A program made the translations under genes and the position numbers. Below, piece after piece: positions 6,188 through 63,596 of a stretch of 64,000 bases of DNA (positions are counted from its first letter, which is position 1; each line of letters begins with the position of its first letter). Below the pieces are notes generated by a model that was given only the letters and a program-made list of their open reading frames with translations, was not told the DNA's origin and ran no database searches. The stretch is from Bacilli bacterium (GTDB lineage Bacteria > Bacillota_I > Bacilli_A > RF39 > UBA660). Location: contig JAEEMF010000040.1 in the NCBI GenBank assembly GCA_016283075.1, positions 470 to 64,469 of the forward strand, given 5' to 3'.

Positions 6188-6189
6188 AT

Positions 6190-7023: not shown

Positions 7024-7033
7024 GAGGAATAAT

Positions 7034-7855: not shown

Positions 7856-7867
7856 TAGGAGGATTAT

Positions 7868-8266
7868 ATGAAAAGAAATGGTTTTACTTTAGTTGAACTT
7901 CTTGCAGTTATAATTATTATTGGAGTACTTTCTTTAATAACAGTACCAGTAGTAGATAATGTTATTAAATCTAGTAAACAGTCTGCTCATGATGAACAGT
8001 TAGAACTTATATTAAGTGCTGCAAAAGAATGGGGTTCTAAACATATGATGTCTCTTCCTGCTGATGAAGGAGATACTACTACTGTTACTATATCTGTACT
8101 TAAAACAAGCGGACTTCTTGACGTTAATTTAAAGAGTCCTGTTAATGATAAGTGTTTTAGTAATGATACAGTAATTGTTATTACTAGAAAGAATAATAAT
8201 TATGTATATAATTTTGATGGTGATATAGAATATAGTGATACTTGCGAGGTTGAAGATGGCGAATAA
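7868..8266 (+). CDS. small type IV pilin / pseudopilin
   Basis: RNG|FTLVELLAVIIIIGVLSLITVP motif, 132 aa, with a C-terminal Cys pair. Confidence 0.8.
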   Translation: MKRNGFTLVELLAVIIIIGVLSLITVPVVDNVIKSSKQSAHDEQLELILSAAKEWGSKHMMSLPADEGDTTTVTISVLKTSGLLDVNLKSPVNDKCFSNDTVIVITRKNNNYVYNFDGDIEYSDTCEVEDGE

Positions 8267-15716: not shown

Positions 15717-16079
15717 ATGAATAGAAATGGGTTTACTTTAGTAGAATTAATAGCAATTATAATAATAATTGCTATAGTATCACTTTTATCTTTTACTAGT
15801 TTAACTAATATGTTAAAAGATAGTAATGATAAAGAATTATCAACTTTTGAAGAGTCAGTTAAGACTGCAGCAAAAGTATATGTAGAAACAAATATAGCTG
15901 ATTTTCCAGGATTAAATACTACTGGAACAGTAAAACTTACTGCTAGTACATTAGTAGAAAAAGGTTACTTAAAACCTAATATTAATAATCCTTCAGGATA
16001 TGAACTTACTAAAGTACAAGTAGTAATTACAAAAGAAGCAGATAAGACTTTATCATATAGTATTGTTTATAAGTCATAA
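15717..16079 (+). CDS. small type IV pilin / ComGC-like pseudopilin (candidate major subunit), monocistronic
   Basis: RNG|FTLVELIAIIIIIAIVSLLSF motif, 120 aa. It has its own TTGACT-18-TATAAT promoter (about 15666-15695) and a strong bidirectional terminator. Confidence 0.8.
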   Translation: MNRNGFTLVELIAIIIIIAIVSLLSFTSLTNMLKDSNDKELSTFEESVKTAAKVYVETNIADFPGLNTTGTVKLTASTLVEKGYLKPNINNPSGYELTKVQVVITKEADKTLSYSIVYKS

Positions 16080-32063: not shown

Positions 32064-34046
32064 ATGGAAGAAGAATATGTTGGAACTTTATTTCAAAGAA
32101 TTAGATTAAGTGAAACATTATTTGTATATAAGCCAGTTAGTGCTTTAGATGGTTTTTTAATGACTATTTCTACTGATGATGCTAATATTCCAGATGACCC
32201 TAATGAAGATGAAAATGGATATTACTTTTTTACAGCAAATGGTTATTCTTATACACTACTTAGTAATGCTAATCAGTTTGATGAAGAATATGTAGTAGGT
32301 AACTTAAAACCAATAACTGAATTTGTAGATACAAGTGATGAAGTAGATTTAGATGAAGCATTAAATATATATTCAAATGAAACAGATAATGAAGTATACT
32401 TTGGTTCTACTGAAGATAATGCTAAATTAAAAATATTTAAAATAGAAAAAGACGAACTTATAGATGGTAATATGAGTTTTATTTCTTTTAATACTAGAAG
32501 TATATTTGATAATATCTTTAAAGAATTAGATACTAATAAAGAGAAAAAAATAGATGTAAAACTTGTTAAAGAGTTATTTCATATAGCAGAAAGTAATGTC
32601 TGCGCTTCAAAAGAATTAATTGGGTTAACAGCAACTACTCATGATTTTGAAGGAATACTTTCTTTCCTACATGATAAAGCAGAAGTTCTTACTAAATCAT
32701 TTTCAAATGATGAAGATATTAAAAACACATATGAATTCTTCGAAAACTATCTTACATCTTTTAGAAATATAAAAGATAATACATCTAAAGAAGTAGTAGC
32801 TCTTTATATAGAATTAATTAAACACTGTATTGATACTCATAAAGAAGATATAGATAAGCATATTGAGAATATTTGTAGATATTCTAACTATGAAAAGATA
32901 AAAGATGCTTTTGATGAATTAGAAGAATTTATTAGAAGTCATGAAAAGAGAACATATTCAGGTTTATATGAAAGATTAAATGAAGTTGTAATAGGACAAG
33001 AAGATGCTAAAAGAAATGTACTTGTATCTATCTTTAAAAGTGATAATGATGTTATAAATAAAAACAACTTATTACTAGTTGGTCCTTCTGGATCAGGTAA
33101 AACTTTAATAGCAGAAACATGTGCTGAATATTTAGACATTCCTTCTATAGTAGTTGATTCAACAACACTTTCTACTCCTGGTTATGTAGGACAAGATGTT
33201 GATCAGCAACTAGTTAGGCTTTTAGAAGCAGCAGGAGGAGACTTAGAAAAAGCCCAGAGGGGTATTATTATCTTTGATGAAATAGATAAAAAAGGATCAA
33301 AAGATAATGATGATGTATCTGGTAGAGGAGTTTTAAACTGCTTATTAGGATTTATAGAAGGAAGAAAATATCAACTTGTCTATAGAAATAGACTTGTTGA
33401 ATTTGATACTTCTAAACTTAAAATAATTATGACAGGTGCTTTTGCTAAAGTAGCAGAAGAACTAGTACTTGAAAATAAAAAAACTCATTATGGATTTATA
33501 TCAATAGATTCAAAAAATGAAGAAGTAAAAGTATCTTTATCTGATAAAGATATTACTACTAAAGGTGATATGCCTCCTGAATTTATTGGAAGAGTATTAA
33601 TAGTAAACTTAAGTAAATTAACTAAAGATAATGCTAAAGAATTAATGTATTATTCAGAAAGAAGTATTTTAAAAGATATATTTAATCTTTATATAAAATA
33701 TGATACAAAAGTATATTTTACTGAAGAATTTGTTGATGGTTTTATAAATTCTCTTTTTGATAATAAAGAAGATGAATTTGGTGCAAGAACTATTAATAAA
33801 AAAATATCTGAAGTACTTCTTTCAGCAGAATTCGAATTAATACTATCTTTAGATAAAGAAAATGGATACAAAGAAGTAGTAGTAGGAATAGAAGCACTTA
33901 CAGATCATAATAAAATATTATTTATATATGAAGATGGTACTTCAAAAGAACTTGGAGATATTATAAAAGAAGAGGAAGAAAAGAAGGCTAAAGCAAAAGC
34001 TATGAGAGATATACCAGAATTTATAAAAAGGAAGGTGAACCAGTAG
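32064..34046 (+). CDS. ClpX-family AAA+ ATPase paralog A, with a novel ~300-aa N-terminal region and no zinc-binding domain
   Basis: VIGQEDAKRNV; Walker A LLLVGPSGSGKTLIAE; pore-1 loop TPGYVGQDV; Walker B GIIIFDEIDK; DVSGRGVLNCLLGFIEG; DTSKLKIIMTGAFA; PPEFIGRV; GARTINK. All are collinear with E. coli ClpX motifs. Confidence 0.85.
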   Translation: MEEEYVGTLFQRIRLSETLFVYKPVSALDGFLMTISTDDANIPDDPNEDENGYYFFTANGYSYTLLSNANQFDEEYVVGNLKPITEFVDTSDEVDLDEALNIYSNETDNEVYFGSTEDNAKLKIFKIEKDELIDGNMSFISFNTRSIFDNIFKELDTNKEKKIDVKLVKELFHIAESNVCASKELIGLTATTHDFEGILSFLHDKAEVLTKSFSNDEDIKNTYEFFENYLTSFRNIKDNTSKEVVALYIELIKHCIDTHKEDIDKHIENICRYSNYEKIKDAFDELEEFIRSHEKRTYSGLYERLNEVVIGQEDAKRNVLVSIFKSDNDVINKNNLLLVGPSGSGKTLIAETCAEYLDIPSIVVDSTTLSTPGYVGQDVDQQLVRLLEAAGGDLEKAQRGIIIFDEIDKKGSKDNDDVSGRGVLNCLLGFIEGRKYQLVYRNRLVEFDTSKLKIIMTGAFAKVAEELVLENKKTHYGFISIDSKNEEVKVSLSDKDITTKGDMPPEFIGRVLIVNLSKLTKDNAKELMYYSERSILKDIFNLYIKYDTKVYFTEEFVDGFINSLFDNKEDEFGARTINKKISEVLLSAEFELILSLDKENGYKEVVVGIEALTDHNKILFIYEDGTSKELGDIIKEEEEKKAKAKAMRDIPEFIKRKVNQ

Positions 34047-36040
34047 TGGCAAAAAAAGAAGAAAGATATGCAATCCTTTATGATATAAATGCTGATGATG
34101 AATTCTATAGATATACACCAGTAGATGCTATAGAAGGTGAAATTATAAAAGAAGTAAGGAATGTATTTATAGATGGAGAGTGGGTTGATAAAGAAGTAGA
34201 TGTATTTGTTGCGTATGATAAAGATTTACATATTTATGAAAGATACGTAACTATGAAACACTCTGCAGAGCAAGATATGTGTGTAGGTAATATTATCACA
34301 CGTAAAGAACTTATCGAAAAATATCCTGATGTTAAAATACCACCAGGTGGCATTGGTCTTCAAGCGGAACTTCTTCATGCATTCTTCGAGGATTATAGAG
34401 ACTGTACTATTTGTAAACAAAGAGATTATTTTGATGATGAAGATGATTATGAAGAATCAACTTTTAAGTCTGACTGGTTACTTCAAGATCCTGAAAAGAT
34501 AACTTTAATTCGTTTACAAACTGCATGGGAATGTTCTTTTGATACAATTTCTGCATGTGAAGATGATGAAAAAATTTCTGAAGTATATGATTATCTAGTA
34601 GATATTTTAGATAGTATGTGTACTTATATTATGTGTTGTAAAGAACTTAGTGCAGTAGATAGAGAAAGTTATACAAATGCTTGCGATAATATAGCAAAAA
34701 GAATTATATATGCTAGTGATTTAACAGGGGTTCTTGAACAGGATAAAAAAATTGCTATGGAATTAAATAAAGAATTTAGAGCGTTATTTGATGATATAGC
34801 TGTTAAAACAGTAGAAGCTGCATCTTATATATTAAAAGAACCTAAGAAAGAAACAGCTACTGTTAAACCTTATAAAGATATAAATACTCTTTTAGGAAAT
34901 AGTAAGAAAACAAGACAAGAAATACTTGATGAACTTGATAAAACTGTTATTGGTCATGATGATGCTAAAATAAGATTACTTTCAGTAATTGAAAGTAACT
35001 CGACTATAGAACAAAAGAATAATATTGATGCAGTACTTTTAATAGGACCTTCTGGATGTGGTAAAACTCTTTTAGTAGAAACATTATCTAAGGTAATGGA
35101 TAAACCATTTGCATTAATTGATACTTTAGCTTTAACACCTGCTGGATATAAAGGTGTTGATCTTGAAAATGTATTAGCATTACAACTTTTAAGAAGTGCT
35201 AAAGGTGATGTTAAGAAAGCTGAAAGAGGAGTAGTATTCTTTGATGAATTTGATAAGAAAGCATCTACATCTGATAAAGAGTCAAATTTTGATAAAAGAA
35301 CTATTGATCAACTTTTAACATATATGTCTGGAACTAAATGTACTGTTGAGTATAATGGTAGAGATACTGAAGTAGATACAAGTTTTATTACATTTGTATT
35401 TGGTGGTTCATTTGCTGATATGATTAAGGCTATGATGGATAATAAAGAGAATGATGAATCATATAAAAGAACTACTATTGGTTTTATAAAAGATACTGCT
35501 AAAGAGATAAAAGATATTAATGAATATGATTTAAAATATCCAGAAAAAATTGAAGACGAGGATTTAGCAGTTCATGGTCATATGCGACCTGAAATGATTA
35601 ATAGAATTCCAACTAAGATAGTTATGCAAGGTGAAAATAGAATATCACTTAAAGATATTTTATTATATTCAACTGTTAGTCCTTTAGTATTTGAAGAAAA
35701 ACGTATTAACGCTAAGGGAGCTAATCTTGCTGTACTAGAAGAATTTATAGATCCTTTTGTAGAATCTGCATTTGGTAGAAAACAGTGTGGAAGATCTTTA
35801 AAAAATGGATTATTTCAAATAACAAGTCTTATTAATGATGTACTTGATGAATATCCAAGTAGATTTAAATATGCTGTACTTAATAAAGAATGCGTAAGTA
35901 ATCCTAGAGATGCTTTATTAATAGATTATGAAAATAATCGCTATACAGTAGGAGAACTTAAAGATGAAATTAAGAAAGCTAAAGAAGCTAAACCAAAAGA
36001 AAGTGTAATTAAAACTTATGCTTTTATACCTGAAAATTAG
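34046..36040 (+). CDS. ClpX-family AAA+ ATPase paralog B, more divergent, with a novel N-terminal region homologous to that of paralog A
   Basis: GTG start overlaps the upstream TAG (TAGTG) behind a GGAAGGTGA RBS. VIGHDDAKIRL; Walker A VLLIGPSGCGKTLLVE; pore loop PAGYKGVDL; Walker B GVVFFDEFDK; ITFVFGGSFA; TTIGF; RPEMINRIP; CGRSLKN. Confidence 0.85.
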   Translation: MAKKEERYAILYDINADDEFYRYTPVDAIEGEIIKEVRNVFIDGEWVDKEVDVFVAYDKDLHIYERYVTMKHSAEQDMCVGNIITRKELIEKYPDVKIPPGGIGLQAELLHAFFEDYRDCTICKQRDYFDDEDDYEESTFKSDWLLQDPEKITLIRLQTAWECSFDTISACEDDEKISEVYDYLVDILDSMCTYIMCCKELSAVDRESYTNACDNIAKRIIYASDLTGVLEQDKKIAMELNKEFRALFDDIAVKTVEAASYILKEPKKETATVKPYKDINTLLGNSKKTRQEILDELDKTVIGHDDAKIRLLSVIESNSTIEQKNNIDAVLLIGPSGCGKTLLVETLSKVMDKPFALIDTLALTPAGYKGVDLENVLALQLLRSAKGDVKKAERGVVFFDEFDKKASTSDKESNFDKRTIDQLLTYMSGTKCTVEYNGRDTEVDTSFITFVFGGSFADMIKAMMDNKENDESYKRTTIGFIKDTAKEIKDINEYDLKYPEKIEDEDLAVHGHMRPEMINRIPTKIVMQGENRISLKDILLYSTVSPLVFEEKRINAKGANLAVLEEFIDPFVESAFGRKQCGRSLKNGLFQITSLINDVLDEYPSRFKYAVLNKECVSNPRDALLIDYENNRYTVGELKDEIKKAKEAKPKESVIKTYAFIPEN

Positions 36041-46655: not shown

Positions 46656-46732
46656 GGACCTTTAGCTCAGTTGGTTAGAGCATCCGGCTCATAACCGGGC
46701 GGTCGTAGGTTCGAGTCCTACAAGGTCCACCA
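46656..46732 (+). tRNA. tRNA with CAT anticodon (Ile2/lysidine-type or elongator Met)
   Basis: Cloverleaf read by eye: acceptor GGACCTT/AAGGTCC, D-arm AGCTCAGTTGGTTAGAGC, anticodon loop CTCATAA, T-arm GTAGGTTCGAGTCCTAC, encoded CCA. A GGACC... 5' end is typical of Firmicute tRNA-Ile2. Confidence 0.85.
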
Positions 46733-46743
46733 TTTCTATAAGT

Positions 46744-46828
46744 GCGAGTGTGGCGAAATTGGCAGACGCGCTAGACTTAGGATCTAGTGTCTTACGACAT
46801 GGGGGTTCAAGTCCCTTCACTCGCACCA
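46744..46828 (+). tRNA. tRNA-Leu (TAG anticodon)
   Basis: Acceptor GCGAGTG/CACTCGC, anticodon stem-loop CTAGA-CTTAGGA-TCTAG, long variable arm (TGTCTTACGACAT), T-loop GGTTCAAGTCC, encoded CCA. 85 nt. Confidence 0.85.
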
Positions 46829-46839
46829 CTAAGAATTAA

Positions 46840-46862
46840 ACGAACCAATGGTTCGTTTTTTT
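46840..46862 (+). terminator. terminator of the tRNA pair
   Basis: ACGAACC-aat-GGTTCGT followed by a T-run. Confidence 0.75.
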
Positions 46863-46921
46863 GTGCCAAAAAAAGGATATAAGAAAGTTTTACCGTATCA
46901 TATAAATAAGGAGGTAAAACG

Positions 46922-47809
46922 ATGAATTATTATAATGAGATAAAAAATAAAATAATTGATAATGAAATATATTCTAAGGTTAAGGATTATTTAAAAGAAA
47001 GACATAAAGTTGTAACATATTTTGAAATTGGGAAGTTACTTGATGAAGCGGGTGGAAAATATGGTGATAATATAATAGATAATTATTCGAAAAGATTAGT
47101 TGCTGAGTTTGGAAAAAAATATGATGGAAGAACATTACGACGTATTAGGCAATATTATAGAACGTTCAAGGATGAAAAGTGGGCGCCGCTGGCGACCAAA
47201 TTATCTTGGAGTCATTATTCGGAATTATTGTCGTTAAAGGATGAAAATAAAATAATGTATTATATTAATGTTTCTTTAGAAAAAAGATTATCGAAACGCG
47301 AATTGAGGGAAATAATAAGGAGTAATGAATATGAAAGATTATCAATAGAAACAAGAAATAAATTAATAGCTAATGTTAAGACGGATATTAAGGATTTGAT
47401 ACCTAATCCTATTTTAATTAGAAATCATAATAACATAGGAATAGTTACTGAAAAAGCATTACGTCAGTTAATTTTGGAAGAAATCGAACCATTTATGAAA
47501 GAACTAGGTAGTTCATTTAGTTTTATAGGTAGTGAATATAAAATTAAAATAGGAGATAGAAACTATTATATTGATATATTATTATTTAATATTGAATATA
47601 ACTGTTACGTTGTTGTTGAATTAAAAATAACTGAATTCAAAGTTGAATATATTTCACAGGTACAAAAATATATGAATTATGTTGATTGCAATATAAAAAA
47701 ACATTGTAATAATACAATAGGAATATTAATATGTAAAAGAGAAAATAAATTTGTTATGGAGTATTGTTCTGATGAAAGAATTGCAGTTAGAGAGTATAAG
47801 CTTGTGTAA
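46922..47809 (+). CDS. YhcG/DUF1016-family PD-(D/E)xK nuclease-fold protein
   Basis: N-terminal YFEIGKLLDE..GKYGDNIIDNYSKRLVAEFGK..RTLRRIRQYYRTF pattern of YhcG_N. C-terminal IDILLFN...YVVVELKITEF contains the D...ELK nuclease motif. Confidence 0.7.
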   Translation: MNYYNEIKNKIIDNEIYSKVKDYLKERHKVVTYFEIGKLLDEAGGKYGDNIIDNYSKRLVAEFGKKYDGRTLRRIRQYYRTFKDEKWAPLATKLSWSHYSELLSLKDENKIMYYINVSLEKRLSKRELREIIRSNEYERLSIETRNKLIANVKTDIKDLIPNPILIRNHNNIGIVTEKALRQLILEEIEPFMKELGSSFSFIGSEYKIKIGDRNYYIDILLFNIEYNCYVVVELKITEFKVEYISQVQKYMNYVDCNIKKHCNNTIGILICKRENKFVMEYCSDERIAVREYKLV

Positions 47810-53446: not shown

Positions 53447-53537
53447 ATAATCACCACCACCATTTTATCATATATTGACTAATTATATGTAATAAATATA
53501 TAATTTTGATATAAGGTAGAATACGAGGTGATAGATA

Positions 53538-54170
53538 ATGAAGATCTTTTTAAATAAAAATAAAACACTATTTTTAGTACTTTGGGTTTCTTTATTATCA
53601 GCATCTGTAGCATTTGCATCTAGTATAATTGCCTCAGAAGTAGGGTATACTCCTAGTGATTCTACTTGGTCAGTTACTAATGTTCAACAAGCAACTGATA
53701 GTTTATACTTAAGTGTAACAAGAAAAAATCCTATTGGGGAAATAATTGCATATATGGGAACAATAGTCCCAGAATATTTTTTAGCATGTGATGGTACTGT
53801 TTATAATATTAGTGATTATCCATATCTTGCTGAACAAATAAAAACTAATTTTGGAAGTTACAATAATTTTGGTGGAAATGGTACTACTACCTTTGCAGTG
53901 CCAGATTTAAGAGGAGAATTCCTTCGTGGTACTGGAACAAACTCTCATTTAAACCAAGGTAATGGTCCTTCGGTAGGGGTACATCAAGATGCAACAGGAA
54001 TAAGACAAAGTGTTGACTGGGGATGGGCTATTTATACAACTGATATTGATTCACAATTCAATAATCAAACTGTAAATGTTCTTTCTAATAAATCAACAAC
54101 AGCAAGTAGTTCTTATTTTACCGTAAGACCTACTAACACAGGTGTAATGTATGCAATTAGGTATGAGTAG
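53538..54170 (+). CDS. secreted phage-tail-collar-domain protein, paralog 1
   Basis: Signal peptide ending AFA|SS. Collar-domain core PIGEIIAYMGTIVPEYFLACDGTVYNISDYPYLAEQIKTNFGSYNNFGGNGTTTFAVPDLRGEFLRG. C-terminal RPTNTGVMYAIRYE. Confidence 0.8.
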   Translation: MKIFLNKNKTLFLVLWVSLLSASVAFASSIIASEVGYTPSDSTWSVTNVQQATDSLYLSVTRKNPIGEIIAYMGTIVPEYFLACDGTVYNISDYPYLAEQIKTNFGSYNNFGGNGTTTFAVPDLRGEFLRGTGTNSHLNQGNGPSVGVHQDATGIRQSVDWGWAIYTTDIDSQFNNQTVNVLSNKSTTASSSYFTVRPTNTGVMYAIRYE

Positions 54171-54177
54171 GTGCAAT

Positions 54178-54849
54178 ATGAAGAAGGTTAGTTTTATCAT
54201 ATTACTTATTATTTCTACTATATCAGTTGTATTTGCTTATAGTACACTTGCTTCAGAAATAAGTTATAATTTAAGTGGTTCTAAATGGTCTACTTCAAAT
54301 ATTCAAGAATCAACTGATAGTTTATATTACGATTTTAAAAGAAGACCTTCTATAGGACAAATAGTAGGATATATGGGAACAGTAGTTCCAGATAATTTTT
54401 TAGAGTGTGATGGTTCTATTTTAAATATAAGTGATTATCCTCATTTAGCAGAGCACTTTGAAGATGAATTTGGTAGTAGTAATTATTTTGGCGGAGATGG
54501 ATCTATGACATTTGCTCTTCCTGATTTAAGAGGAGAGTTTTTAAGAGGATCCACTAGTACTGTAAGTCCAGGAACTCATCAAGATGCAAGCTTACCTAAT
54601 ATTAAAGGAAGATTAGTTCCTAACTTAAATGCTACTTCTACAATAAGAATTCTTGGAGGAGGTGGCGGAGCTATTACCATAAGTGGTAGCTCAGGTAAAC
54701 ACGCTTATGTATCTGCTATAAATGGGTCATATAATGTAGCAAATTCTGATCTTGTTTTTGATGCATCTAGATATAGCTCTGTTTATCAAAATGGTGCAGA
54801 AGCGCGTCCTACTAATACTTCAGTTTTATATGTTATTAGATATAAGTAG
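54178..54849 (+). CDS. secreted phage-tail-collar-domain protein, paralog 2
   Basis: ATG at 54178 follows a GTAGGTG RBS. SIGQIVGYMGTVVPDNFLECDGSILNISDYPHLAEHF..FGGDGSMTFALPDLRGEFLRG. C-terminal RPTNTSVLYVIRYK. Confidence 0.8.
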   Translation: MKKVSFIILLIISTISVVFAYSTLASEISYNLSGSKWSTSNIQESTDSLYYDFKRRPSIGQIVGYMGTVVPDNFLECDGSILNISDYPHLAEHFEDEFGSSNYFGGDGSMTFALPDLRGEFLRGSTSTVSPGTHQDASLPNIKGRLVPNLNATSTIRILGGGGGAITISGSSGKHAYVSAINGSYNVANSDLVFDASRYSSVYQNGAEARPTNTSVLYVIRYK

Positions 54850-54871
54850 CAAGGATTCTTCCTTGCTTTTT
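54849..54871 (+). terminator. repeated cassette terminator, copy 1 (after paralog 2)
   Basis: GCAAGGA-ttct-TCCTTGC followed by T5. The same hairpin arms recur at 55610-55631 and 56393-56415. Confidence 0.75.
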
Positions 54872-54920
54872 ATTTTGTATATTTATATAATTAATGTATA
54901 AGATAGAAGGTGATGAAAAA

Positions 54921-55610
54921 ATGAAAAACTTTTTAAAGAAAAATTATTTTGGTTTTTTTATCGGAATCATTTTTTCATCAGTTTTTATAGTATACGCTTC
55001 TAGTTATATAGCAAGTGCTGTAGGATTTACTTCTATAGATAGCTCTTGGAACGTAGATAATGTTAAAGAAGCTACTGATAGCTTGTATTATAAAGCTATA
55101 GAAAATTACCCTGTTGGAGAAATAATAAGTTTTATGGGAGTAAATGCTCCTGAATACTTTCTTGCTTGTGATGGTACTGTTTATAATATAAATGATTATC
55201 CACTTCTTGCTGAGCAAATAAAAACTAATTTTGGTGATTACAACTTTTTTGGCGGAAATGGTACTACTACATTTGCGGTACCTAATTTAAGTGGTGAGTT
55301 TCTAAGAGGAGCAACTAGCACCGTAAGCGCAGGAACTCATCAAGATGCAAGCTTACCTAATATAAAAGGTAAATTAGTTCCTAACTTGCACGCTACTACT
55401 GCTGTAGGTTTGATTGGATCAGGAAATGGTGTTTTTACAATGAGTGGTAGTTCCTGGGAACACTCTCGTACCACTAATATAAATGGTTCGTATGATGTAG
55501 CAAACTCAGATATTACGTTTGATGCATCTAGATCAAATTCTACTTATCAAGATGGAGCAGAGGCAAAACCTGCTAATACCTCAGTTTTATATATTATTAG
55601 ATATGAATAG
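54921..55610 (+). CDS. secreted phage-tail-collar-domain protein, paralog 3
   Basis: ATG at 54921 follows a GAAGGTGA RBS. PVGEIISFMGVNAPEYFLACDGTVYNINDYPLLAEQIKTNFG..FGGNGTTTFAVPNLSGEFLRG. C-terminal KPANTSVLYIIRYE. Confidence 0.8.
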   Translation: MKNFLKKNYFGFFIGIIFSSVFIVYASSYIASAVGFTSIDSSWNVDNVKEATDSLYYKAIENYPVGEIISFMGVNAPEYFLACDGTVYNINDYPLLAEQIKTNFGDYNFFGGNGTTTFAVPNLSGEFLRGATSTVSAGTHQDASLPNIKGKLVPNLHATTAVGLIGSGNGVFTMSGSSWEHSRTTNINGSYDVANSDITFDASRSNSTYQDGAEAKPANTSVLYIIRYE

Positions 55611-55631
55611 CAAGGAGTATCCTTGCTTTTT
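55610..55631 (+). terminator. repeated cassette terminator, copy 2 (after paralog 3)
   Basis: GCAAGGA-gta-TCCTTGC followed by T5, then the same TATATTTATATAATTA promoter-like block as copy 1. Confidence 0.75.
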
Positions 55632-55682
55632 ATTTGGTATATTTATATAATTAGTGTATAAGGTAGAAATTGGGTGATGCAA

Positions 55683-56393
55683 ATGAAAAACTTTTTAAAG
55701 AATAATTTCTTAGGTTTCTTTATAGGAATCATTTTTTCATTTGTCTTTATATTTACTATGTCTATATATATAGCAAGTAATCCTTCCTTTTCTTCTAAAA
55801 AAACATTTTTAATGATTGAAAATAGTAAACTTACAGATGGTTCTTTAGCTTCAGTTACTAAAAAATATCCAGTAGGAGAGATAATAACTTATATGGGAAC
55901 ACATACTCCTAATTATTATTTAGCTTGTGATGGTACTACATATAATATAGTTGATTATCCGCTTTTAGCAAATCACATTGAAACGGAGTTTGGAAGTAAA
56001 AACTTCTTTGGAGGAAATGGTACTACTACATTTGCAGTACCAGATCTTAGAGGAGAGTTTCTTCGTGGTACTGGAACTAACTCTCACACTGGGCAAGGAA
56101 ATGGTTCTAGTGTAGGAACTCATCAAACAGCATCTTTACCTAATTTAAAAGGTAAATTTGTAACTAGTTTACATGCTACTAATACTTCTCCTTTATTTGC
56201 TTCAGGGCATGGTGCATTTTTACTTAGTGGTAGTTCATGGGAGCACTCTAGAATATCTAGTATAAGTGGTGCAACAAATGTTGCTGATTCAGATGCACTT
56301 TTTGATGCATCTAGATCAAGTTCTGTTTATCAAGATGACGCTGAAGTTAGACCAACTAATACTTCAGTACTATATGCAATTAGATATGAATAG
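55683..56393 (+). CDS. secreted phage-tail-collar-domain protein, paralog 4
   Basis: PVGEIITYMGTHTPNYYLACDGTTYNIVDYPLLANHIETEFG..FGGNGTTTFAVPDLRGEFLRG. C-terminal RPTNTSVLYAIRYE. The start could be 55674, 55677 or 55683. Confidence 0.8.
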   Translation: MKNFLKNNFLGFFIGIIFSFVFIFTMSIYIASNPSFSSKKTFLMIENSKLTDGSLASVTKKYPVGEIITYMGTHTPNYYLACDGTTYNIVDYPLLANHIETEFGSKNFFGGNGTTTFAVPDLRGEFLRGTGTNSHTGQGNGSSVGTHQTASLPNLKGKFVTSLHATNTSPLFASGHGAFLLSGSSWEHSRISSISGATNVADSDALFDASRSSSVYQDDAEVRPTNTSVLYAIRYE

Positions 56394-56415
56394 CAAGGAT
56401 GAATCCTTGCTTTTT
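56393..56415 (+). terminator. repeated cassette terminator, copy 3 (after paralog 4)
   Basis: GCAAGGA-tgaa-TCCTTGC followed by T5. Confidence 0.75.
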
Positions 56416-56462
56416 AATTGACAAAAATATATAATATATTTTATAGAGTAGGAGTGTGTAGA

Positions 56463-57140
56463 ATGAAGAAATATTTCAAAAAAGAATATCTTTTTATTAT
56501 ATCTGTAATATTTTTGACTTCTATTACAACTCTTGCATTTAGTTATGACGCTAGGGATGTTGGATACACTCCTAGTGATGTTAATTGGAATGTAGATAAT
56601 GTTAAAGATGCTACTGATAGTTTGTATTATAGTATTAAAGGTAAAAGCCCTATTGGGGAAATAATTGCATATATGGGTACTAATGCTCCAGAGTATTTTT
56701 TAGAGTGTGATGGTACTGTTTATAATATAAGTGAGTATCCATATCTAGCGGAACAAATTAAAAGAGAATTTGGCTCTTATAGTAAGTTTGGTGGAAATGG
56801 TACAACAACATTTGCTGTTCCTGATTTAAGAGGAGAGTTTCTTCGTGGTCGAGGAACAAATAGTCATGCTAATCAAGGTAGTGGCGCAAATGTAGGTATT
56901 CATCAAGATGCAACACTACTTCCATATTATTATAAATTTTATGACAATTCTTTATATGGTGTTCAATTTGATGGACCTACATCAACTACATATATAACAG
57001 ATCCAGATGTAGTAAAGGTTGGTAGTGGTTATTATTCTAATTTTTATCAAGATAGTGGTGGACCATATTCAAATATATCTCTAACTTTTACAACAAGACC
57101 TACAAATACATCTATATTATATGCAATAAGGTATGAATAG
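56463..57140 (+). CDS. secreted phage-tail-collar-domain protein, paralog 5
   Basis: ATG at 56463 follows a GTAGGAG RBS. PIGEIIAYMGTNAPEYFLECDGTVYNISEYPYLAEQIKREFG..FGGNGTTTFAVPDLRGEFLRG. Tyr/Gly-rich distal region. C-terminal RPTNTSILYAIRYE. Confidence 0.8.
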   Translation: MKKYFKKEYLFIISVIFLTSITTLAFSYDARDVGYTPSDVNWNVDNVKDATDSLYYSIKGKSPIGEIIAYMGTNAPEYFLECDGTVYNISEYPYLAEQIKREFGSYSKFGGNGTTTFAVPDLRGEFLRGRGTNSHANQGSGANVGIHQDATLLPYYYKFYDNSLYGVQFDGPTSTTYITDPDVVKVGSGYYSNFYQDSGGPYSNISLTFTTRPTNTSILYAIRYE

Positions 57141-57149
57141 GGGGATACT

Positions 57150-57794
57150 GTGAAGAACTTTAAGAAAATAGTTATTAATACATTTTTAATAATCATTCTT
57201 TCTTTTTTTACAACGTATGCCTTTAACTATGTTGTAGGTAAAAAGAAAGAATCATATGTCTATAATAATAGGAGTTTAATGTCAGGGACATCATATGGTT
57301 TTAGTAGAAGAAGTCCGGTTGGGACAATTATTTCTTATATGGGAGAAAGTGCTCCTGAATCTTTCCTTGAATGTGATGGAAAAGTTTACAATATAAAAGA
57401 TTACCCATACCTTGCTGAGCAAATTAAAAGTGAATTTGGTTCTTATAATAAATTTGGAGGAAATGGTACGACAACCTTTGCTGTACCTGATTTAAGAGGA
57501 GAGTTTTTAAGAGGTAGGGGTACTAATAGTCATACTAAACAGGGTAGTGGCTCTATTGTTGGAACACATCAAGATGCAACGGTATTACCTTATTATGCTG
57601 TATATTCATCTAGTGTTTATATTTATGGACCTTCAGTAACGTATGTGGGAGATAATTTCGATTATCGAAATGTTGGTTCTGGTTATTATTCTAATATTTA
57701 TCATGATTATGGTAATACTTCCTCAAATACAAGTATGTCATTTTCTCTTAGGCCAACAAATACTTCAGTATTATATGCAATTAAATATGAGTAA
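57150..57794 (+). CDS. secreted phage-tail-collar-domain protein, paralog 6
   Basis: GTG start follows a GGGGGA RBS. PVGTIISYMGESAPESFLECDGKVYNIKDYPYLAEQIKSEFG..FGGNGTTTFAVPDLRGEFLRG. C-terminal RPTNTSVLYAIKYE. Confidence 0.75.
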   Translation: MKNFKKIVINTFLIIILSFFTTYAFNYVVGKKKESYVYNNRSLMSGTSYGFSRRSPVGTIISYMGESAPESFLECDGKVYNIKDYPYLAEQIKSEFGSYNKFGGNGTTTFAVPDLRGEFLRGRGTNSHTKQGSGSIVGTHQDATVLPYYAVYSSSVYIYGPSVTYVGDNFDYRNVGSGYYSNIYHDYGNTSSNTSMSFSLRPTNTSVLYAIKYE

Positions 57795-57796: not shown

Positions 57797-57826
57797 TAAA
57801 AAATGGTTCATTATTTGAACCATTTT
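57797..57826. terminator. bidirectional terminator closing the collar-domain array
   Basis: AAAATGGTTCA-ttat-TTGAACCATTTT lies between convergent genes. Confidence 0.7.
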
Positions 57827-58410
57827 GTTTTGCCTCTATATGTAATCTCATTTGTATTTGGATTATATAATAAAGAATGACTTCCTTGTAATCTAGCATG
57901 TACTTGATAAATGAGTGTTGAATTAACTTCAAATGTATATTTTTTAGCAAGTGCATCTCTTACATAAGTTAACCATTTTTCACTTGCTACTTTTCTACTT
58001 TCTGGAGTAGCCATATAGTGAATTGTCTGTTTATTCATTACTTTATTTTCTCTTACAAGTTTATTTTCTTCTTCATCAAGTATTTCTTCATTACATTTAA
58101 TAAAACCATATGCATTTGCGGCAGCAAATAGCATATCTACTGTATCAAAGTCATCTTGACTTTCTATTTTAAGCCATGGATTACCTTTAAATGATACTAT
58201 TTCTGGAAGAGTAACTCTTTCACCTTCATTTAATTTATGAAGTTCTGATTCCATTAAAGGTTCAATAACTTTTTCAATTCCAGCATATAATTTAGTTTTA
58301 TCAAATTTATATATATTTTGATGTAAGATACTATATCCATTTACTGTTTGATGTCCTTTTTTAACATCAAGCATATCTAATAAATTGTTTTTTAATACCT
58401 TTTTATCCAT
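57811..58410 (-). CDS. hypothetical protein (199 aa)
   Basis: Clean ORF with a GGGGCG-type RBS region, convergent with the array. No signal peptide or recognisable motif. Confidence 0.5.
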   Translation of the reverse strand: MDKKVLKNNLLDMLDVKKGHQTVNGYSILHQNIYKFDKTKLYAGIEKVIEPLMESELHKLNEGERVTLPEIVSFKGNPWLKIESQDDFDTVDMLFAAANAYGFIKCNEEILDEEENKLVRENKVMNKQTIHYMATPESRKVASEKWLTYVRDALAKKYTFEVNSTLIYQVHARLQGSHSLLYNPNTNEITYRGKTKWFK

Positions 58411-58495: not shown

Positions 58496-59212
58496 ATGAG
58501 TTATATATTATTTCATATTCCGCACTCATCACTTAGAGTTCCTAGTAGGTATTATAAGTATAGTTTAGTCTGTAGAAGCTATATTGATGAGACTAAAAGA
58601 GTGCTTGCAGATTTAGATGTAGATAAACTAATACCTAGTAAATGTAATAAGTTAATCTTTAAATATTCTAGAATCTTTTGTGATGTGGAAAAGTTTAAAG
58701 ATGATTCTAAAGAAATAATGAGTAAAAAAGGAATGGGAGTAATATATACTAAGGATTTAGATAGAGATATCTTTAATCCTAGTAAGAAATATAAAAGTAA
58801 CATAATAAAATCATATTATGATAAATATCATGATAAACTTAATAAAGTAGTATCTACTACTTTAAAAAAATATAATAAGTGTTTAATAATAGATTTACAT
58901 AGTTTTAGTGATATTGCTATGGAAAAGTTATTTGGGTATAAGGATACTCCTGATATATGTATAGGAGTAGATCCTAAATATACTAGTAAAGAACTTGCTG
59001 ATATGGTTACAAACTTCTTTATAGATAAAGGTTACTCAGTTAAAATAAATTATCCTTATAGTGGTACTATTATTCCTAATAAGTACTTTTATAAAGAAGA
59101 AAAAAGACTTGAATCTATTATGATTGAAATAAATAAGAGATTATATCTAGAAAATAATTATGAAATAAAGAAAGATATTGATATTTTATATAAAAAATTA
59201 TTAAAAAAATGA
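58496..59212 (+). CDS. N-formylglutamate amidohydrolase-family (FGase-like) protein
   Basis: The FHIPHSSLRVP opening and IIDLHSF match the metal-ligand pattern (HxxH/..D..H) of the FGase family. About 240 aa. Confidence 0.4.
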   Translation: MSYILFHIPHSSLRVPSRYYKYSLVCRSYIDETKRVLADLDVDKLIPSKCNKLIFKYSRIFCDVEKFKDDSKEIMSKKGMGVIYTKDLDRDIFNPSKKYKSNIIKSYYDKYHDKLNKVVSTTLKKYNKCLIIDLHSFSDIAMEKLFGYKDTPDICIGVDPKYTSKELADMVTNFFIDKGYSVKINYPYSGTIIPNKYFYKEEKRLESIMIEINKRLYLENNYEIKKDIDILYKKLLKK

Positions 59213-61607: not shown

Positions 61608-63596
61608 ATGAAAGATAAGCCAATATATTTATGGCCATTTATTGGTGTCTATAGATTAGTGATGCTTATATTTAAAATCCCTGTAATGCTGGTATATTAC
61701 TTCTTTATGGGAGTATTAACTACTGTTGCATTTATTTCCTTTGCATGGTGGAAATTCCTTAAGTACTTAGCATTTGGATTTTCATTTCCATTTGTTGTGG
61801 CAGGAAGATCTATTAAGGGTGATAATAAACCAAGTAGTAAAAAGACCGCTACTGTTGTAGTAAAACCTTCTAAGAAAAAGAAATCTAACTTTATTGAAGC
61901 AGATATTGCTGAATTATCTAAGACTAATCCACGTCTTGCTAAGAAATTAGCTAAGAAGAAAGCTAAGGAACAAGCAAGAAAAGAAAGATTAGAAGCTAAG
62001 AGAAAGATAAAGAAAGCTAAAGAAGAAGCTAAACTTAGAAAAGCAAATAAGAATTTAGATAAATTAAACGAAGCTGCTGAAGCTAGACGTAAACGTAATG
62101 CTCTTATTCAAGAACAAAATATGGATTTAATGAATAAGAACAGACAAGAGATTGTTTCAAATATGAAAGAATCTGATAAGAAATCTCATGGTAAAGTTGT
62201 TCGTAGAAAGAAAAGTATTGGTGAAGCTATTAACGACTTCCTTGAAGGACTTATCACTAAGACTGCTAGATCTAAAGATAGTGGTATTGCTAAACATAAG
62301 ATTAATAAACAAGAATTACAACGTGAAGCTATACTTCTTGACTTAACAGGAAAAGATGCTGTTAAGAGTGAAAAGAAACAAGTTTATGAATATGTTGCTA
62401 AGAATCCAGATGGAGATGTAGTAACAGGATACTTTGATGCATTCAGTAAAGTTGAAGTACACTCATTCCTTCTTAGTGAAGGTTATGAAGTTTATAGTAT
62501 AAAGACTAATGGATGGATTAGATTTATCCATGGTTCACAAGAAGTTAAAGGTGTTAAGTTTAAGATGAAGGATTTACTATTCTTCTTAACACAATTATCA
62601 ACTTATATTAAAGCTGGTATTCCTCTTGTAGAATCACTTAGAATTTTAAGTAAACAATTTGCTCAAAAAGGATATCAAAAGATATTTAGAGCAATGATAT
62701 ATGACTTAACAATGGGAGATAACTTCTCAACTGCTATGGAAAAGCAGGGTAATGCTTTCCCAAAAATCTTATCAAATATGATTAAGACTTCAGAAATGAC
62801 AGGTGAACTTCCAGAAATACTTGATGACATGCAAAAATACTTTGATGAAACAGATAAGACAAGAAAACAAATGATTACAGCTCTTACTTATCCTACAATC
62901 GTATTTGTACTTGCAATTGCTGCATCTGCATTCATCATGATTTATATCGTACCTAAATTTGTTACAATTTATGCAGGTATGGATAATGCACAGCTTCCAG
63001 CTATTACACAAATCATACTAGCAATATCAGATTTCTTAGTTAAGAAGTGGCCACTTCTACTTGGTGTAATTGCTGGTGTAATTATTATATTTATTTACTT
63101 ATATAAAAATGTTAAAGTTATTAGATACTTTATGCAATATACAATGATGCATGTTCCAGTAATTGGTAGTGTTATCATTTATAACGAAGTAACTATGTTT
63201 ACTAAAACATTTGCTTCTCTACTTAAACATAACGTATTTATTACAGATACAATGGATATTTTAAATAAGATTTCAAATAATGAAGTTTGGAAGGTATTAA
63301 TACTTGATTGTATTGCAAACCTTTCTAAAGGTGAAAAAATATCTCTAGCATTTAAAGGACAATGGGCTGTTCCTATTCCAGCGTACGAAATGATCGTAAC
63401 TGGTGAAAGAACAGGACAACTTCCAGAAATGATGCAAAAAGTATCTGAATATTACCAAGAACTTCATAGAAATGCCGTTGGTCGTATAAAATCATTTATT
63501 GAACCATTCTTAATACTATTCCTAGTTGGTGTAGTAGGTGTAATTGTTCTTTCAATTATTATTCCAATGTTTGATATGTACAACCAATTAACATAG
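61608..63596 (+). CDS. type II secretion / type IV pilus platform protein (GspF/PilC/ComGB family) with a ~250-aa N-terminal extension
   Basis: The C-terminal ~410 aa contain the two T2SS-F repeats (LTQLSTYIKAGIPLVESL..., TKTFASLLKHNVFITDTM...) and 3 TM segments. The N-terminal part adds a TM hairpin and a Lys/Glu/Ala-rich coiled segment. ATG at 61608 follows a GAAGGTG RBS. Confidence 0.75.
   Translation: MKDKPIYLWPFIGVYRLVMLIFKIPVMLVYYFFMGVLTTVAFISFAWWKFLKYLAFGFSFPFVVAGRSIKGDNKPSSKKTATVVVKPSKKKKSNFIEADIAELSKTNPRLAKKLAKKKAKEQARKERLEAKRKIKKAKEEAKLRKANKNLDKLNEAAEARRKRNALIQEQNMDLMNKNRQEIVSNMKESDKKSHGKVVRRKKSIGEAINDFLEGLITKTARSKDSGIAKHKINKQELQREAILLDLTGKDAVKSEKKQVYEYVAKNPDGDVVTGYFDAFSKVEVHSFLLSEGYEVYSIKTNGWIRFIHGSQEVKGVKFKMKDLLFFLTQLSTYIKAGIPLVESLRILSKQFAQKGYQKIFRAMIYDLTMGDNFSTAMEKQGNAFPKILSNMIKTSEMTGELPEILDDMQKYFDETDKTRKQMITALTYPTIVFVLAIAASAFIMIYIVPKFVTIYAGMDNAQLPAITQIILAISDFLVKKWPLLLGVIAGVIIIFIYLYKNVKVIRYFMQYTMMHVPVIGSVIIYNEVTMFTKTFASLLKHNVFITDTMDILNKISNNEVWKVLILDCIANLSKGEKISLAFKGQWAVPIPAYEMIVTGERTGQLPEMMQKVSEYYQELHRNAVGRIKSFIEPFLILFLVGVVGVIVLSIIIPMFDMYNQLT

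What the first reader, a model, noticed from the sequence alone, without database searches (positions are those of the whole stretch)
53538..57794. Array of six tandem secreted phage-tail-collar-domain proteins outside any prophage
Six consecutive + strand genes (about 210-240 aa each) share three elements.
1. A Sec signal peptide or signal anchor.
2. A strongly conserved core, P(I/V)GEII.YMG...P..(F/Y)L.CDG..YNI.(D/E)YP.LA..I...FG....FGG(N/D)G(T/S).TFA(V/L)P(D/N)L(R/S)GEFLRG. This matches the Phage Tail Collar domain pattern (T4 gp12 / MdpB-type, ...CDG...Y..L......GG.G...F.LPDLRG...).
3. An invariant C-terminal strand, (R/K)P(T/A)NT.(V/I)(L/M)Y.I(R/K)Y(E/K).

No capsid, tail, baseplate, lysis, integrase or repressor gene is nearby. 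The neighbours are ABC transporters, an orphan 199-aa ORF and an FGase-like gene. A receptor-binding-type fold appears to have been domesticated, given export signals and amplified into a chromosomal family. Possible roles are variable surface or secreted ligands, adhesins, bacteriocin-like effectors, or decoys against phage. I am not aware of a described system of this form.
Basis: partly seen in the sequence, partly recalled or inferred. Interest (0 to 1): 0.82.

Follow-up and report, generated by a model that had tools for sequence, protein, structure and literature searches.

The report
Membrane-anchored phage-fibre-tip surface protein array
An uncultured low-GC gut bacterium carries six neighbouring genes, not in any prophage, for membrane-anchored proteins whose outer part is the receptor-binding tip of a phage tail fibre, with a conserved stalk and a fast-changing head, most likely a repertoire of surface adhesins.

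Summary
Six tandem + strand genes (53538-57794) each pass Pfam Collar (PF07484, 58-64 bits against a cut-off of 24). Each has a K-rich N-terminus followed by a hydrophobic helix, and each ends in RPTNTSVLYAIRYE. The whole ectodomain (neck helix, collar, head, C-strand) is homologous to the T4 gp12-type fibre tip.

No prophage lies within 53 kb upstream or 15 kb downstream. All neighbours are housekeeping genes.

New findings:
- Relatives carry 25-60 charged residues before the hydrophobic helix, so the N-terminus is probably an N-in membrane anchor rather than a cleaved signal.
- The array has four promoter/terminator units.
- There are three unrelated head classes on one conserved stalk.
- In a syntenic strain the flanks are 94-99% identical, but the collar genes drop to 63%, with changes concentrated in the heads.
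- A relative has a seven-gene array.
- The same module is fused to type IV pilins in many related metagenomic proteins.
- Type IV pilus machinery lies 3.8 kb downstream, and five pilin genes are in the window.

Best reading: trimeric surface lectin or adhesin repertoire. The function is inferred.

Small, unanchored tandem Collar genes are widespread, so I rate this a new variant of a known kind. Interest is about 0.55.

The parts
53475..53504 (+). Best sigma-70-like promoter (TTGACT-18-TATAAT) in front of gene 1, in the divergent intergenic region shared with the ABC exporter operon
   Evidence: 11/12 match. It is the first copy of repeat family D4. It is conserved in the orthologous locus L091. 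This is a consensus match only; function is not shown.
53538..54170 (+). Collar gene 1 (210 aa): anchor, neck motif VGYTPSDSTWSVTNVQQATDSLY, collar, short class-C head (46 aa), C-strand
   Evidence: Shine-Dalgarno GAGGTGA is upstream.
54178..54849 (+). Collar gene 2 (223 aa, start MKKVSF): class-A head (74 aa). Only 7 nt after gene 1, so probably co-transcribed with it
   Evidence: (P0003)
54848..54867 (+). Terminator-like hairpin AGCAAGGA-loop-TCCTTGCT plus T-run after gene 2, followed by the promoter-like cassette at 54860-54908
   Evidence: D4. Eleven terminator-like sites were found against 1.6 expected in shuffles.
54921..55610 (+). Collar gene 3 (229 aa, P0002). Domain map: anchor helix aa 1-32 (54921-55016), neck aa 33-62 (55017-55106), collar aa 63-141 (55107-55343), class-A head aa 142-215 (55344-55565), C-strand aa 216-229 (55566-55607)
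   Evidence: The AF2 model gives helix 7-32, helix 48-61, collar pLDDT 90-95, head pLDDT below 50, and C-strand 223-227.
55609..55627 (+). Terminator-like hairpin after gene 3, followed by the promoter-like cassette at 55620-55668 (94% identical to the copy before gene 3)
55683..56393 (+). Collar gene 4 (236 aa from MKNFLKNN): degenerate neck, class-A head
56392..56411 (+). Terminator-like hairpin after gene 4, followed by the promoter-like cassette at 56404-56452
56463..57140 (+). Collar gene 5 (225 aa, P0037): neck motif present, class-B head (63 aa)
57150..57794 (+). Collar gene 6 (214 aa, GTG start): anchor present, neck motif lost, class-B head (59 aa). It is the most divergent between strains (63% aa identity)
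   Evidence: (orthologue P0047 keeps the anchor)
57800..57826 (.). Bidirectional terminator-like hairpin (11 bp stem) between gene 6 and the convergent 199-aa ORF

Best explanation
The six genes encode bitopic surface proteins. Each has a short K-rich cytoplasmic N-terminus and one hydrophobic helix that inserts N-in/C-out through Sec. That helix probably stays as an anchor, although cleavage at the A-x-A-like sites of genes 1-3 cannot be excluded.

The roughly 170-200 residue ectodomain is a complete phage tail-fibre tip. It consists of a neck helix, the Collar domain, a head inserted after the invariant HQ, and a C-terminal strand (RPTNTSVLY.I.Y) that returns to the collar.

By homology with T4 gp12 and gp37, three chains should intertwine. 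The conserved anchor, neck and collar would act as a constant stalk, and the head would be the ligand-binding tip, most likely binding a surface glycan.

The array is a repertoire. It has three unrelated head classes (A: genes 2-4; B: genes 5-6; C: gene 1) on one stalk, expressed from four promoter/terminator units. Heads evolve and are exchanged much faster than the rest of the genome.

The most likely role is adhesion or recognition of glycans on other microbes, feed particles or host mucus by an uncultured, low-GC rumen or gut member of the Bacilli.

Shown: domain identity, the anchor-like N-termini, the non-prophage context, the constant/variable pattern, the transcription-unit signals, and conservation of the array in another strain and in a relative.

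Inferred: trimerisation, surface exposure, ligand type and adhesin role.
For: Domain identity:
- Collar domain in all six genes.
- The family profile aligns positions 57-222 to gp12 335-525, and aligns the neck to another phage short tail fibre.
- Foldseek's top hits are gp12 1ocy, 5iv5 and 1pdi, a cyanophage fibre, and the gp37 tip.
- The AF2 monomer has a confident TM helix, neck helix, collar and C-strand. The head is unmodelled, as expected for an intertwined trimer.

Anchor:
- All 55 family members have a hydrophobic helix.
- Twelve members, including all seven genes of the L087 array, have 25-60 charged residues before it. That argues against a cleaved signal peptide.

Context:
- The window and the downstream contig contain only housekeeping and type IV pilus genes.

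Repertoire behaviour:
- Paralogue stalks are 45-76% identical, whereas heads of different classes are 12-25% identical.
- Allele P0039 has a stalk 87% identical to gene 1 but a head only 16% identical and of different length.
- In the syntenic strain L091 the flanks are 94.5-99.7% identical with dS 0.05-0.20. The collar genes are 63-97% identical with dS up to 0.82.
- Head dN/dS is 0.13-0.55 against 0.03-0.18 for the collar.

Expression signals:
- Conserved terminator and promoter cassettes.
- Good Shine-Dalgarno sites before every gene.

Display precedent:
- The same module is the C-terminal module of at least 75 clusters of type IV pilins in related metagenomic proteins. Modular pilins are documented adhesin carriers (PMC8179133).
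Against: - There are no expression, localisation or binding data. The organism is known only from metagenome assemblies.
- No dedicated signal-peptide or TM predictor was available. Genes 1-3 have plausible A-x-A cleavage sites, so release into the medium is possible.
- Trimerisation could not be modelled because only a monomer tool was available, and the head has pLDDT below 50.
- Head dN/dS is raised but stays below 1. Diversifying selection is therefore suggested, not demonstrated. The high dS points to allele replacement rather than point-mutation selection.
- If the organism has a thick cell wall, a roughly 170-residue ectodomain anchored in the membrane might not reach the surface. The envelope type could not be established.
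- The Zn-binding HxH of the gp12 head is not conserved, so head chemistry differs from the model protein.
Confidence: 0.55

Rival explanations
1. The proteins are type IV pilus accessories. The anchored Collar proteins would work with the neighbouring type IV pilus system, for example as partners of a minor pilin or as a tip or base adhesin complex, rather than as free-standing membrane adhesins.
For: - PilC-like, prepilin peptidase, PilB-like and two pilin genes start 3.8 kb downstream, and this synteny is kept in L091.
- Five more pilin genes are in the window.
- In relative L001 the collar gene starts 2 nt after a 153-aa pilin gene.
- In L087 a pilin gene lies 350 bp after the seven-gene array.
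- Pilin-Collar fusions are abundant.
- Background pilin density is about 0.06 per kb. Two of five independent loci having a pilin within 0.5 kb is only marginally unusual: my rough binomial p is about 0.03.
Against: - None of the six has a class III signal peptide. The G|F-x-x-x-E motif is absent, and only genes 3 and 4 have G-F, without E5.
- CysRS, TruB, FGase and an orphan gene separate the array from the pilus genes.
- L086 and L089 have no adjacent pilin.
- Collar cores of anchored and pilin-fused proteins form separate coherent groups: 43/46 and 31/34 have a nearest neighbour within their own class. The two groups are equally distant from the phage-type forms. That suggests two parallel display solutions, not one system.
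Confidence: 0.15
2. The proteins form heterotrimers. Neighbouring genes with the same head class (2-3-4, and 5-6 with a third chain) would assemble into mixed trimers, as three consecutive Collar proteins do in a virophage, so the array would encode about two complexes rather than six.
For: - Genes 2, 3 and 4 share a 74-aa head class at 54-64% identity, and genes 5 and 6 share another.
- The three consecutive PF07484 proteins of virophage DSLV2 form a 1:1:1 heterotrimer (PMC12724248).
- Triplets of small Collar genes are common in other phyla.
Against: - Terminator and promoter cassettes separate genes 2|3|4. That arrangement suits independent expression poorly matched to fixed stoichiometry.
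- The relative's array has seven genes with seven unrelated heads.
- Single-copy loci exist, so homotrimers must be viable.
- This rival changes the assembly model but not the function.
Confidence: 0.15
3. The proteins defend against phage or act in competition. They would either mask or occupy the cell's own phage receptors (superinfection exclusion or decoy), or act as bacteriocin-like targeting modules against competitors.
For: The fold is a phage receptor-binding domain. Fast head turnover is also what an arms-race locus would show.
Against: - There are no PADLOC defence-family hits.
- No toxin, lysis, immunity or tail-tube/sheath genes are adjacent.
- The proteins have no domain beyond the binding tip.
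Confidence: 0.07
4. The array is the remnant of a decayed prophage or tailocin, and the genes are drifting leftovers without a cellular role.
For: - The closest non-Bacilli relatives are prophage tail fibres in Clostridia.
- In relatives L001 and L089 the single collar gene lies next to Bro-N/KilA-N genes.
Against: - All six ORFs are intact, each with a Shine-Dalgarno site, promoter-like and terminator-like signals.
- Collar and C-strand dN/dS is 0.03-0.18, indicating purifying selection.
- The same six-gene array is kept in another strain, and a seven-gene array sits elsewhere in a relative.
- No phage structural gene occurs within about 68 kb.
- The added anchor and neck architecture is conserved in at least 16 clusters at 50% identity.
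Confidence: 0.03

Closest known systems
Receptor-binding tip of phage tail fibres of the T4 gp12 / gp37 type (PDB 1OCY, 5IV5, 2XGF; also T5 pb1 8HQZ and short tail fibre 9CUY)
   Same: The neck helix, Collar domain, inserted head and C-terminal strand are homologous over the whole ectodomain. The variable head on a conserved collar is the same design.
   Different: - There is no fibre shaft and no baseplate-attachment region.
- The N-terminus is a membrane anchor instead.
- The genes are chromosomal and outside any phage.
- The gp12 Zn-binding HxH is not conserved.
- Trimerisation is not shown here.
Small 'microcystin-dependent protein' (MdpB/COG4675)-type Collar proteins encoded in tandem pairs, triplets and longer arrays in many bacterial phyla
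   Same: Both are stand-alone Collar-plus-head proteins of about 170-240 aa in same-strand tandem arrays outside prophages. Examples are 14 copies in Bacteroidia locus L057, 11 in Ignavibacteria locus L069, and triplets in Proteobacteria. Function is undefined in the literature I could search.
   Different: 110 of 118 of those proteins start directly at the collar and have no hydrophobic N-terminus or neck. The proteins here add an anchor and a phage-type neck, and belong to a distinct subfamily of low-GC Bacilli MAGs.
Modular type IV pilins: S. sanguinis PilB/PilC (PMC8179133), the shufflon PilV-tail-collar fusion (PMC9881135), and the pilin-Collar family found here
   Same: A ligand-binding module is grafted onto a membrane-inserted N-terminal helix for display outside the cell. 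The very same Collar module, ending SRPTNTSVLYCIKY, is used by at least 75 pilin clusters.
   Different: The six proteins lack the class III signal peptide, and their collars form a separate sequence group. They are not pilins.
Three consecutive Collar-domain tail proteins of virophage DSLV2 (PMC12724248)
   Same: These are adjacent small PF07484 genes. Their products form a trimer with a collar and a flexible head, and are reported to bind lipopolysaccharide.
   Different: They are viral capsid-attached heterotrimers with no membrane anchor. They form a fixed triplet rather than a variable array.
Bdellovibrio chimeric fibre adhesins ('mosaic adhesive trimers', PMC10769870)
   Same: Both are chromosomally encoded, phage-fibre-like trimeric adhesin families with diverse tips, used by a bacterium to recognise other cells. 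This rests on the title and abstract seen and on my own knowledge.
   Different: Those are long fibres in a diderm predator, with different tip folds and a different attachment mode. No homology was tested.
Tandem variable surface protein families of Mollicutes (e.g. Vsa/Vlp/Vsp; from my own knowledge, not tested)
   Same: Both are same-strand arrays of surface proteins, each with its own promoter, a conserved N-terminal part and a variable exposed part.
   Different: Those are lipoproteins with repeat-based variation and phase switching. No lipobox, repeats, invertase or obvious switch was found here.

Membership tests
Pfam PF07484 Phage Tail Collar domain | Score above the curated gathering threshold (24 bits) over the full model | tested here: met
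   All six genes score 57.8-64.4 bits with model positions 1-57/57 matched.
T4 gp12-type receptor-binding domain | Homology that extends beyond the collar through the head to the C-terminal strand | tested here: met
   Family profile positions 57-222 align to 1ocy residues 6-196 (gp12 335-525), E 2.6e-7. Foldseek's top hit is 1ocy, E 1.6e-5.
T4 gp12-type receptor-binding domain | Intertwined homotrimer | not testable with these tools
   Only monomer prediction was available. The head is unmodelled (pLDDT below 50), which is compatible with a fold that needs partner chains.
T4 gp12-type receptor-binding domain | Zn site formed by the HxH motif in the head (own knowledge of gp12) | tested here: not met
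   The gp12 segment YHKH aligns to the hypervariable head. No HxH is conserved in the family.
Phage / tailocin tail fibre (as part of a particle) | Adjacent baseplate, tail, capsid or lysis genes | tested here: not met
   A Pfam scan of all large ORFs in the window and the next 15 kb finds only housekeeping, ABC transporter and type IV pilus genes.
Type IV pilins | Class III signal peptide: short basic leader, G at -1, F/M at +1, E at +5, then a hydrophobic helix | tested here: not met
   A regex and Pfam N_methyl scan finds five pilins elsewhere in the window but none among the six. The N-termini are listed.
MdpB/COG4675-type small Collar proteins | About 170-200 aa with the collar starting within the first ~10 residues, no export signal, and tandem paralogues | tested here: not met
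   The tandem arrangement is met. The collar, however, starts at residue 55-65, after an anchor and a neck. 110/118 comparison proteins lack any hydrophobic N-terminus.
Sec-dependent signal-anchored (type II bitopic) membrane proteins | Positive N-terminal flank, one hydrophobic helix of about 20 residues, no signal-peptidase cleavage | tested here: inconclusive
   Each protein has 2-4 K/R before the helix and a mean Kyte-Doolittle score of 2.3-2.9 over 15 residues. AF2 predicts helix 7-32. Relatives have 25-60 residue cytoplasmic extensions. Genes 1-3 also have A-x-A-like sites, and no SignalP or TMHMM was available.
Known anti-phage defence systems (PADLOC-DB) | Match to any defence-system protein model | tested here: not met
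   There were no hits for the six proteins or for the adjacent 199-aa ORF.

The most novel reading that the evidence does not exclude
Reduced-genome, uncultured gut Bacilli have turned the phage receptor-binding tip into a general, exchangeable cell-targeting cassette. They display it in two ways: on a membrane anchor (arrays of 1-7 genes with swappable heads) and on the tips of type IV pili (pilin-Collar fusions). They would use this repertoire to recognise and attach to specific partner bacteria, as an epibiotic or cross-feeding lifestyle, or to target membrane vesicles. Head swapping would set partner range much as it sets host range in phages.
Probability: 0.15. Interest if true: 0.8.

Novelty: new variant of a known kind. 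Interest (0 to 1): 0.55.

Why it matters
Phage tail-fibre tips are the best-understood specificity devices in microbiology. Finding them as intact, membrane-anchored, multi-copy cellular genes, with a constant stalk, swappable heads and strain-to-strain allele replacement, gives a candidate system for how uncultured rumen or gut Bacilli recognise surfaces or partner cells.

The parallel discovery that the same module is a frequent cargo of type IV pilins in related bacteria strengthens the adhesin reading. It also extends the 'modular pilin' concept.

The heads are short (46-74 residues) and sit on a conserved scaffold. That makes them experimentally tractable, through recombinant ectodomains and glycan arrays, and potentially useful as engineerable binders.

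It would also offer a first functional handle on the very large, uncharacterised family of non-phage Collar proteins (39,725 clusters at 50% identity).

Tried and rejected
- Prophage or tailocin context: rejected after a Pfam scan of the whole window and the downstream contig.
- Class III (prepilin) signal in the six proteins: looked for and absent.
- Defence-system membership: no PADLOC hits.
- NCBIfam naming: no family matched.
- The convergent 199-aa ORF as a fibre chaperone or partner: it is found only in the two near-identical strains and next to no other Collar locus, and it has no Pfam, PHROG or NCBIfam family. I do not consider it part of the system.
- Flanking ABC transporters as dedicated exporters: they are syntenic only in the close strain and absent from the other Collar loci.
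- Shufflon-like inversion or repeat-based phase variation: no inverted repeats of note, no recombinase, and no homopolymer length differences between the strains' 5' regions.
- Anchored and pilin-fused collars as sister groups: not supported. The groups are equidistant.
- Literature searches for described anchored or secreted Collar arrays, MdpB and COG4675 returned nothing relevant.
- The organism could not be identified beyond 'Bacilli bacterium' MAG, and the cell-envelope type could not be established.

Full report
**1. Observation**

ORF listing shows six consecutive + strand ORFs between 53538 and 57794. Upstream is a divergent ABC-2 exporter operon. Downstream are a convergent 199-aa ORF, an FGase-family gene, cysS and truB.

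All six match Pfam PF07484 (Collar) across the full model, with E-values of 9e-18 to 1e-15. They also match numerous PHROG tail-fibre families.

Shine-Dalgarno sites and orthologues refine the starts to 53538, 54178, 54921, 55683, 56463 and 57150 (GTG).

**2. What the protein is**

- Sequence searches against solved structures hit the T5 L-shaped fibre, the T4 gp12 receptor-binding domain and another phage short tail fibre.
- A 55-sequence family profile (A2) aligns positions 57-222, the whole ectodomain, to gp12 residues 335-525. It also aligns the pre-collar 'neck' motif to a phage short tail fibre.
- An AlphaFold2 monomer model of gene 3 has an N-terminal helix (residues 7-32), a neck helix (48-61), a very confident collar (pLDDT 90-95) and a confident C-terminal strand. 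The head (143-214) is unmodelled.
- Foldseek returns gp12 (1ocy, 5iv5, 1pdi), a cyanophage fibre and the gp37 tip.
- The gp12 Zn-binding HxH is not conserved.

The architecture is therefore anchor helix, neck, collar, variable head, then C-strand. That is a phage fibre tip without a shaft.

**3. Secreted or anchored?**

Every family member has 2-4 K/R residues followed by a strongly hydrophobic 15-23 residue segment. Genes 1-3 have A-x-A-like motifs. Genes 5 and 6 have F at position -1, which is unfavourable for signal peptidase.

Twelve relatives, including all seven proteins of the array in L087, carry a 25-60 residue charged, coiled-coil-like segment before the same hydrophobic segment and the conserved juxtamembrane motif. 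This is the layout of an N-in/C-out signal anchor, not of a cleaved signal peptide.

I therefore favour membrane anchoring, at about two to one. No dedicated predictor was available.

A 191-aa protein in L086 uses the same anchor and neck with a different C-terminal domain. This suggests the stalk is a general display scaffold.

**4. Context**

The window is identical to part of NCBI MAG contig JAEEGJ010013426.1, with 0 mismatches over 10.8 kb.

Pfam scans of essentially all large ORFs show housekeeping genes only: FtsK, topoisomerase subunits, LexA, transketolase, Tgt, RNase J, MiaB, SecDF, RelA, Dtd, HisRS, SMC, MMPL and ABC transporters. No phage gene is present.

- A PilC-like gene at 61608-63596.
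- Beyond the window: prepilin peptidase, a PilB-like ATPase and two pilin genes. One of these is a 540-aa pilin with an ALK/LTK-type glycine-rich domain.
- In the window: five canonical pilin genes at 5324-8266 and 15717-16079, two of them with BspA-type LRR modules.

**5. Organisation of the array**

Near-identical hairpins (AGCAAGGA-loop-TCCTTGCT plus a T-run) follow genes 2, 3 and 4. Each is followed by a conserved promoter-like cassette. A strong promoter-like site precedes gene 1, and a bidirectional hairpin follows gene 6. In all, 11 terminator-like sites were found against 1.6 expected.

The predicted transcription units are [1-2], [3], [4] and [5-6]. The unit of duplication was gene plus terminator plus promoter.

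**6. Constant stalk, variable head**

Within the array, stalks (neck plus collar) are 45-76% identical. Heads fall into three classes:
- A: genes 2-4, 74 aa, 54-64% identical to each other.
- B: genes 5-6, 59-63 aa, 51% identical.
- C: gene 1, 46 aa.

Heads of different classes are only 12-25% identical.

Metagenomic alleles show head swapping. P0039 has a stalk 87% identical to gene 1, but its head is 16% identical and of different length.

A syntenic locus from another sample (L091) keeps the same six genes between the same neighbours. There:
- Flanking genes are 94.5-99.7% identical, with dS 0.05-0.20.
- Collar genes 1-6 are 91.9, 93.3, 96.9, 96.6, 84.9 and 63.0% identical, with dS up to 0.49 and 0.82 for genes 5 and 6.
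- Head dN/dS is 0.13-0.55 against 0.03-0.18 for the collar.

This is the signature of purifying selection on the scaffold, with accelerated change and allele replacement at the tip. dN/dS stays below 1, so positive selection is not proven.

**7. Relatives**

Homologues of about 210-265 aa with the same architecture come from 'Bacilli bacterium' MAGs of ruminant and other gut samples.
- One relative has seven tandem genes with nearly identical stalks and seven unrelated heads, in a different housekeeping neighbourhood.
- Others have single or double copies.
- The closest non-Bacilli relatives are prophage tail fibres of Clostridia.
- Against 1.84 billion representatives, the module has 39,725 matches at E<=1e-3. 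Only about 16 of the top 150 match from the anchor onward.
- Small tandem Collar genes are common elsewhere, with up to 14 copies. But 110/118 of them lack any hydrophobic N-terminus.

**8. The pilus connection**

P0032 and the L012 gene are canonical type IV pilins (KGFTLIELLAVIVILA) fused to the same Collar module.

A search with P0032 shows at least 75 of the top 120 clusters with PF07963+PF07484. These occur as single genes wedged between tsf and frr, or between rpsR and rpsJ.

Precedent in the literature I could find is thin:
- The 2021 survey of modular pilins lists the Collar InterPro entry only once, in a different architecture.
- A 2023 study reports one shufflon PilV-collar fusion.

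This supports the idea that the module is an externally displayed binding device. A direct link between the six anchored proteins and pili is weak:
- They have no prepilin signal.
- Housekeeping genes lie between them and the pilus genes.
- Pilin adjacency occurs at 2 of 5 independent loci, against a background of about 0.06 pilin genes per kb. My rough p is about 0.03.
- Anchored and pilin-fused collars form separate, equidistant sequence groups.

**9. Mechanism proposed**

Sec inserts the N-terminal helix. Three chains assemble through neck and collar. The head forms the distal ligand-binding surface. Different heads give different specificities, and independent promoters allow differential expression.

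The ligand is unknown. Related phage and virophage tips bind lipopolysaccharide or other surface glycans (gp12 from my own knowledge). Trimerisation, exposure and binding are inferences.

Alternatives are pilus accessory, heterotrimers, defence or competition, and a decayed prophage. They are weighed in the rivals section. The prophage reading is essentially refuted, and the defence reading has no positive evidence.

**10. Novelty and verdict**

Domesticated fibre-tip domains are known, in tailocins, injection systems, Bdellovibrio fibres and a PilV fusion. Unanchored tandem Collar genes are widespread. The finding is therefore not categorically new.

What appears undescribed is the membrane-anchored, neck-bearing architecture, organised as multi-promoter arrays with swappable heads in uncultured gut Bacilli, together with the sister family of pilin-Collar modular pilins.

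I rate it a new variant of a known kind, with interest about 0.55.

Noticed in passing
window 61608-63596, continuing in L005 10386-16422 (L005 coordinate + 53224 = window coordinate): Type IV pilus machinery lies 3.8 kb downstream of the array. It comprises a 662-aa PilC/GspF-like protein with a ~250-residue N-terminal extension, a prepilin peptidase, a 335-aa unknown, a PilB-like ATPase on the opposite strand, and then two pilin genes (323 aa with GFILTE; 540 aa with GFTVVE).
   Followed up: partly
L005 14800-16422 (just outside the window): This is a 540-aa type IV pilin whose C-terminal half is an ALK/LTK-type glycine-rich domain (PF12810, E 3e-32). Glycine-rich proteins also sit next to the Collar tail fibre in prophage locus L013. 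It may be another phage-fibre-like module on a pilin.
   Followed up: partly
window 5324-8266 and 15717-16079: Five canonical type IV pilin genes (GFTL[IV]E) are present. Three are large (273-287 aa), and two of these carry a BspA-type leucine-rich-repeat module. They are modular pilins scattered among housekeeping genes (after an aminotransferase/DsbD-like gene, and after parC next to lexA).
   Followed up: partly
Related loci L012 9539-10462, L092 8001-8954, L094 8001-8957; proteins P0032, P0123-P0195: A large, apparently undescribed family of bimodular type IV pilins carries a Collar receptor-binding module (306-378 aa). At least 75 clusters at 90% identity were found. They occur as single genes between highly expressed translation genes (tsf|frr, rpsR|rpsJ).
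   Followed up: partly
window 57811-58410 (- strand): A 199-aa ORF with no family match in Pfam, PHROGs, NCBIfam or PADLOC. It is 98% identical in the other strain with dN/dS 0.07, so it is a real gene. It has no hydrophobic segment and is not found beside any other Collar locus.
   Followed up: partly
L086 7399-7974: A 191-aa protein has the same N-terminal anchor and NV..A.D.LY-type neck but a non-Collar C-terminal domain. It lies directly upstream of a Collar gene. The anchor-plus-neck stalk may therefore display other heads too.
   Followed up: no
window 46656-47809; L001 10832-13119; L089 8783-9640: tRNA-Met and tRNA-Leu are followed by a DUF1016/YhcG nuclease gene about 6 kb upstream of the array. 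In relatives, the single Collar gene is directly followed by DUF1016 and/or Bro-N and KilA-N genes. This may be a trace of how the module arrived.
   Followed up: no
window 32064-36040: Two adjacent paralogous ~660-aa AAA+ (Cdc48/ClpB-like AAA_2) proteins of unclear function lie between dtd and hisS.
   Followed up: no
window 823-2610: A 595-aa signal-peptide protein has a C-terminal segment that weakly matches the type IV secretion pilin family PF18895 (E 1.3e-5, below threshold).
   Followed up: no
P0230 and other top hits: Very large proteins carry several tandem copies of this exact Collar-head module, up to 3391 aa with six copies. Proteins such as P0004 and P0121 carry two complete modules in one chain.
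   Followed up: no
L091 11590-12069 compared with window 58496-59212: The FGase-family gene next to the array is called as only 159 aa in the other strain, against 238 aa here. It may be truncated or differently started there.
   Followed up: no
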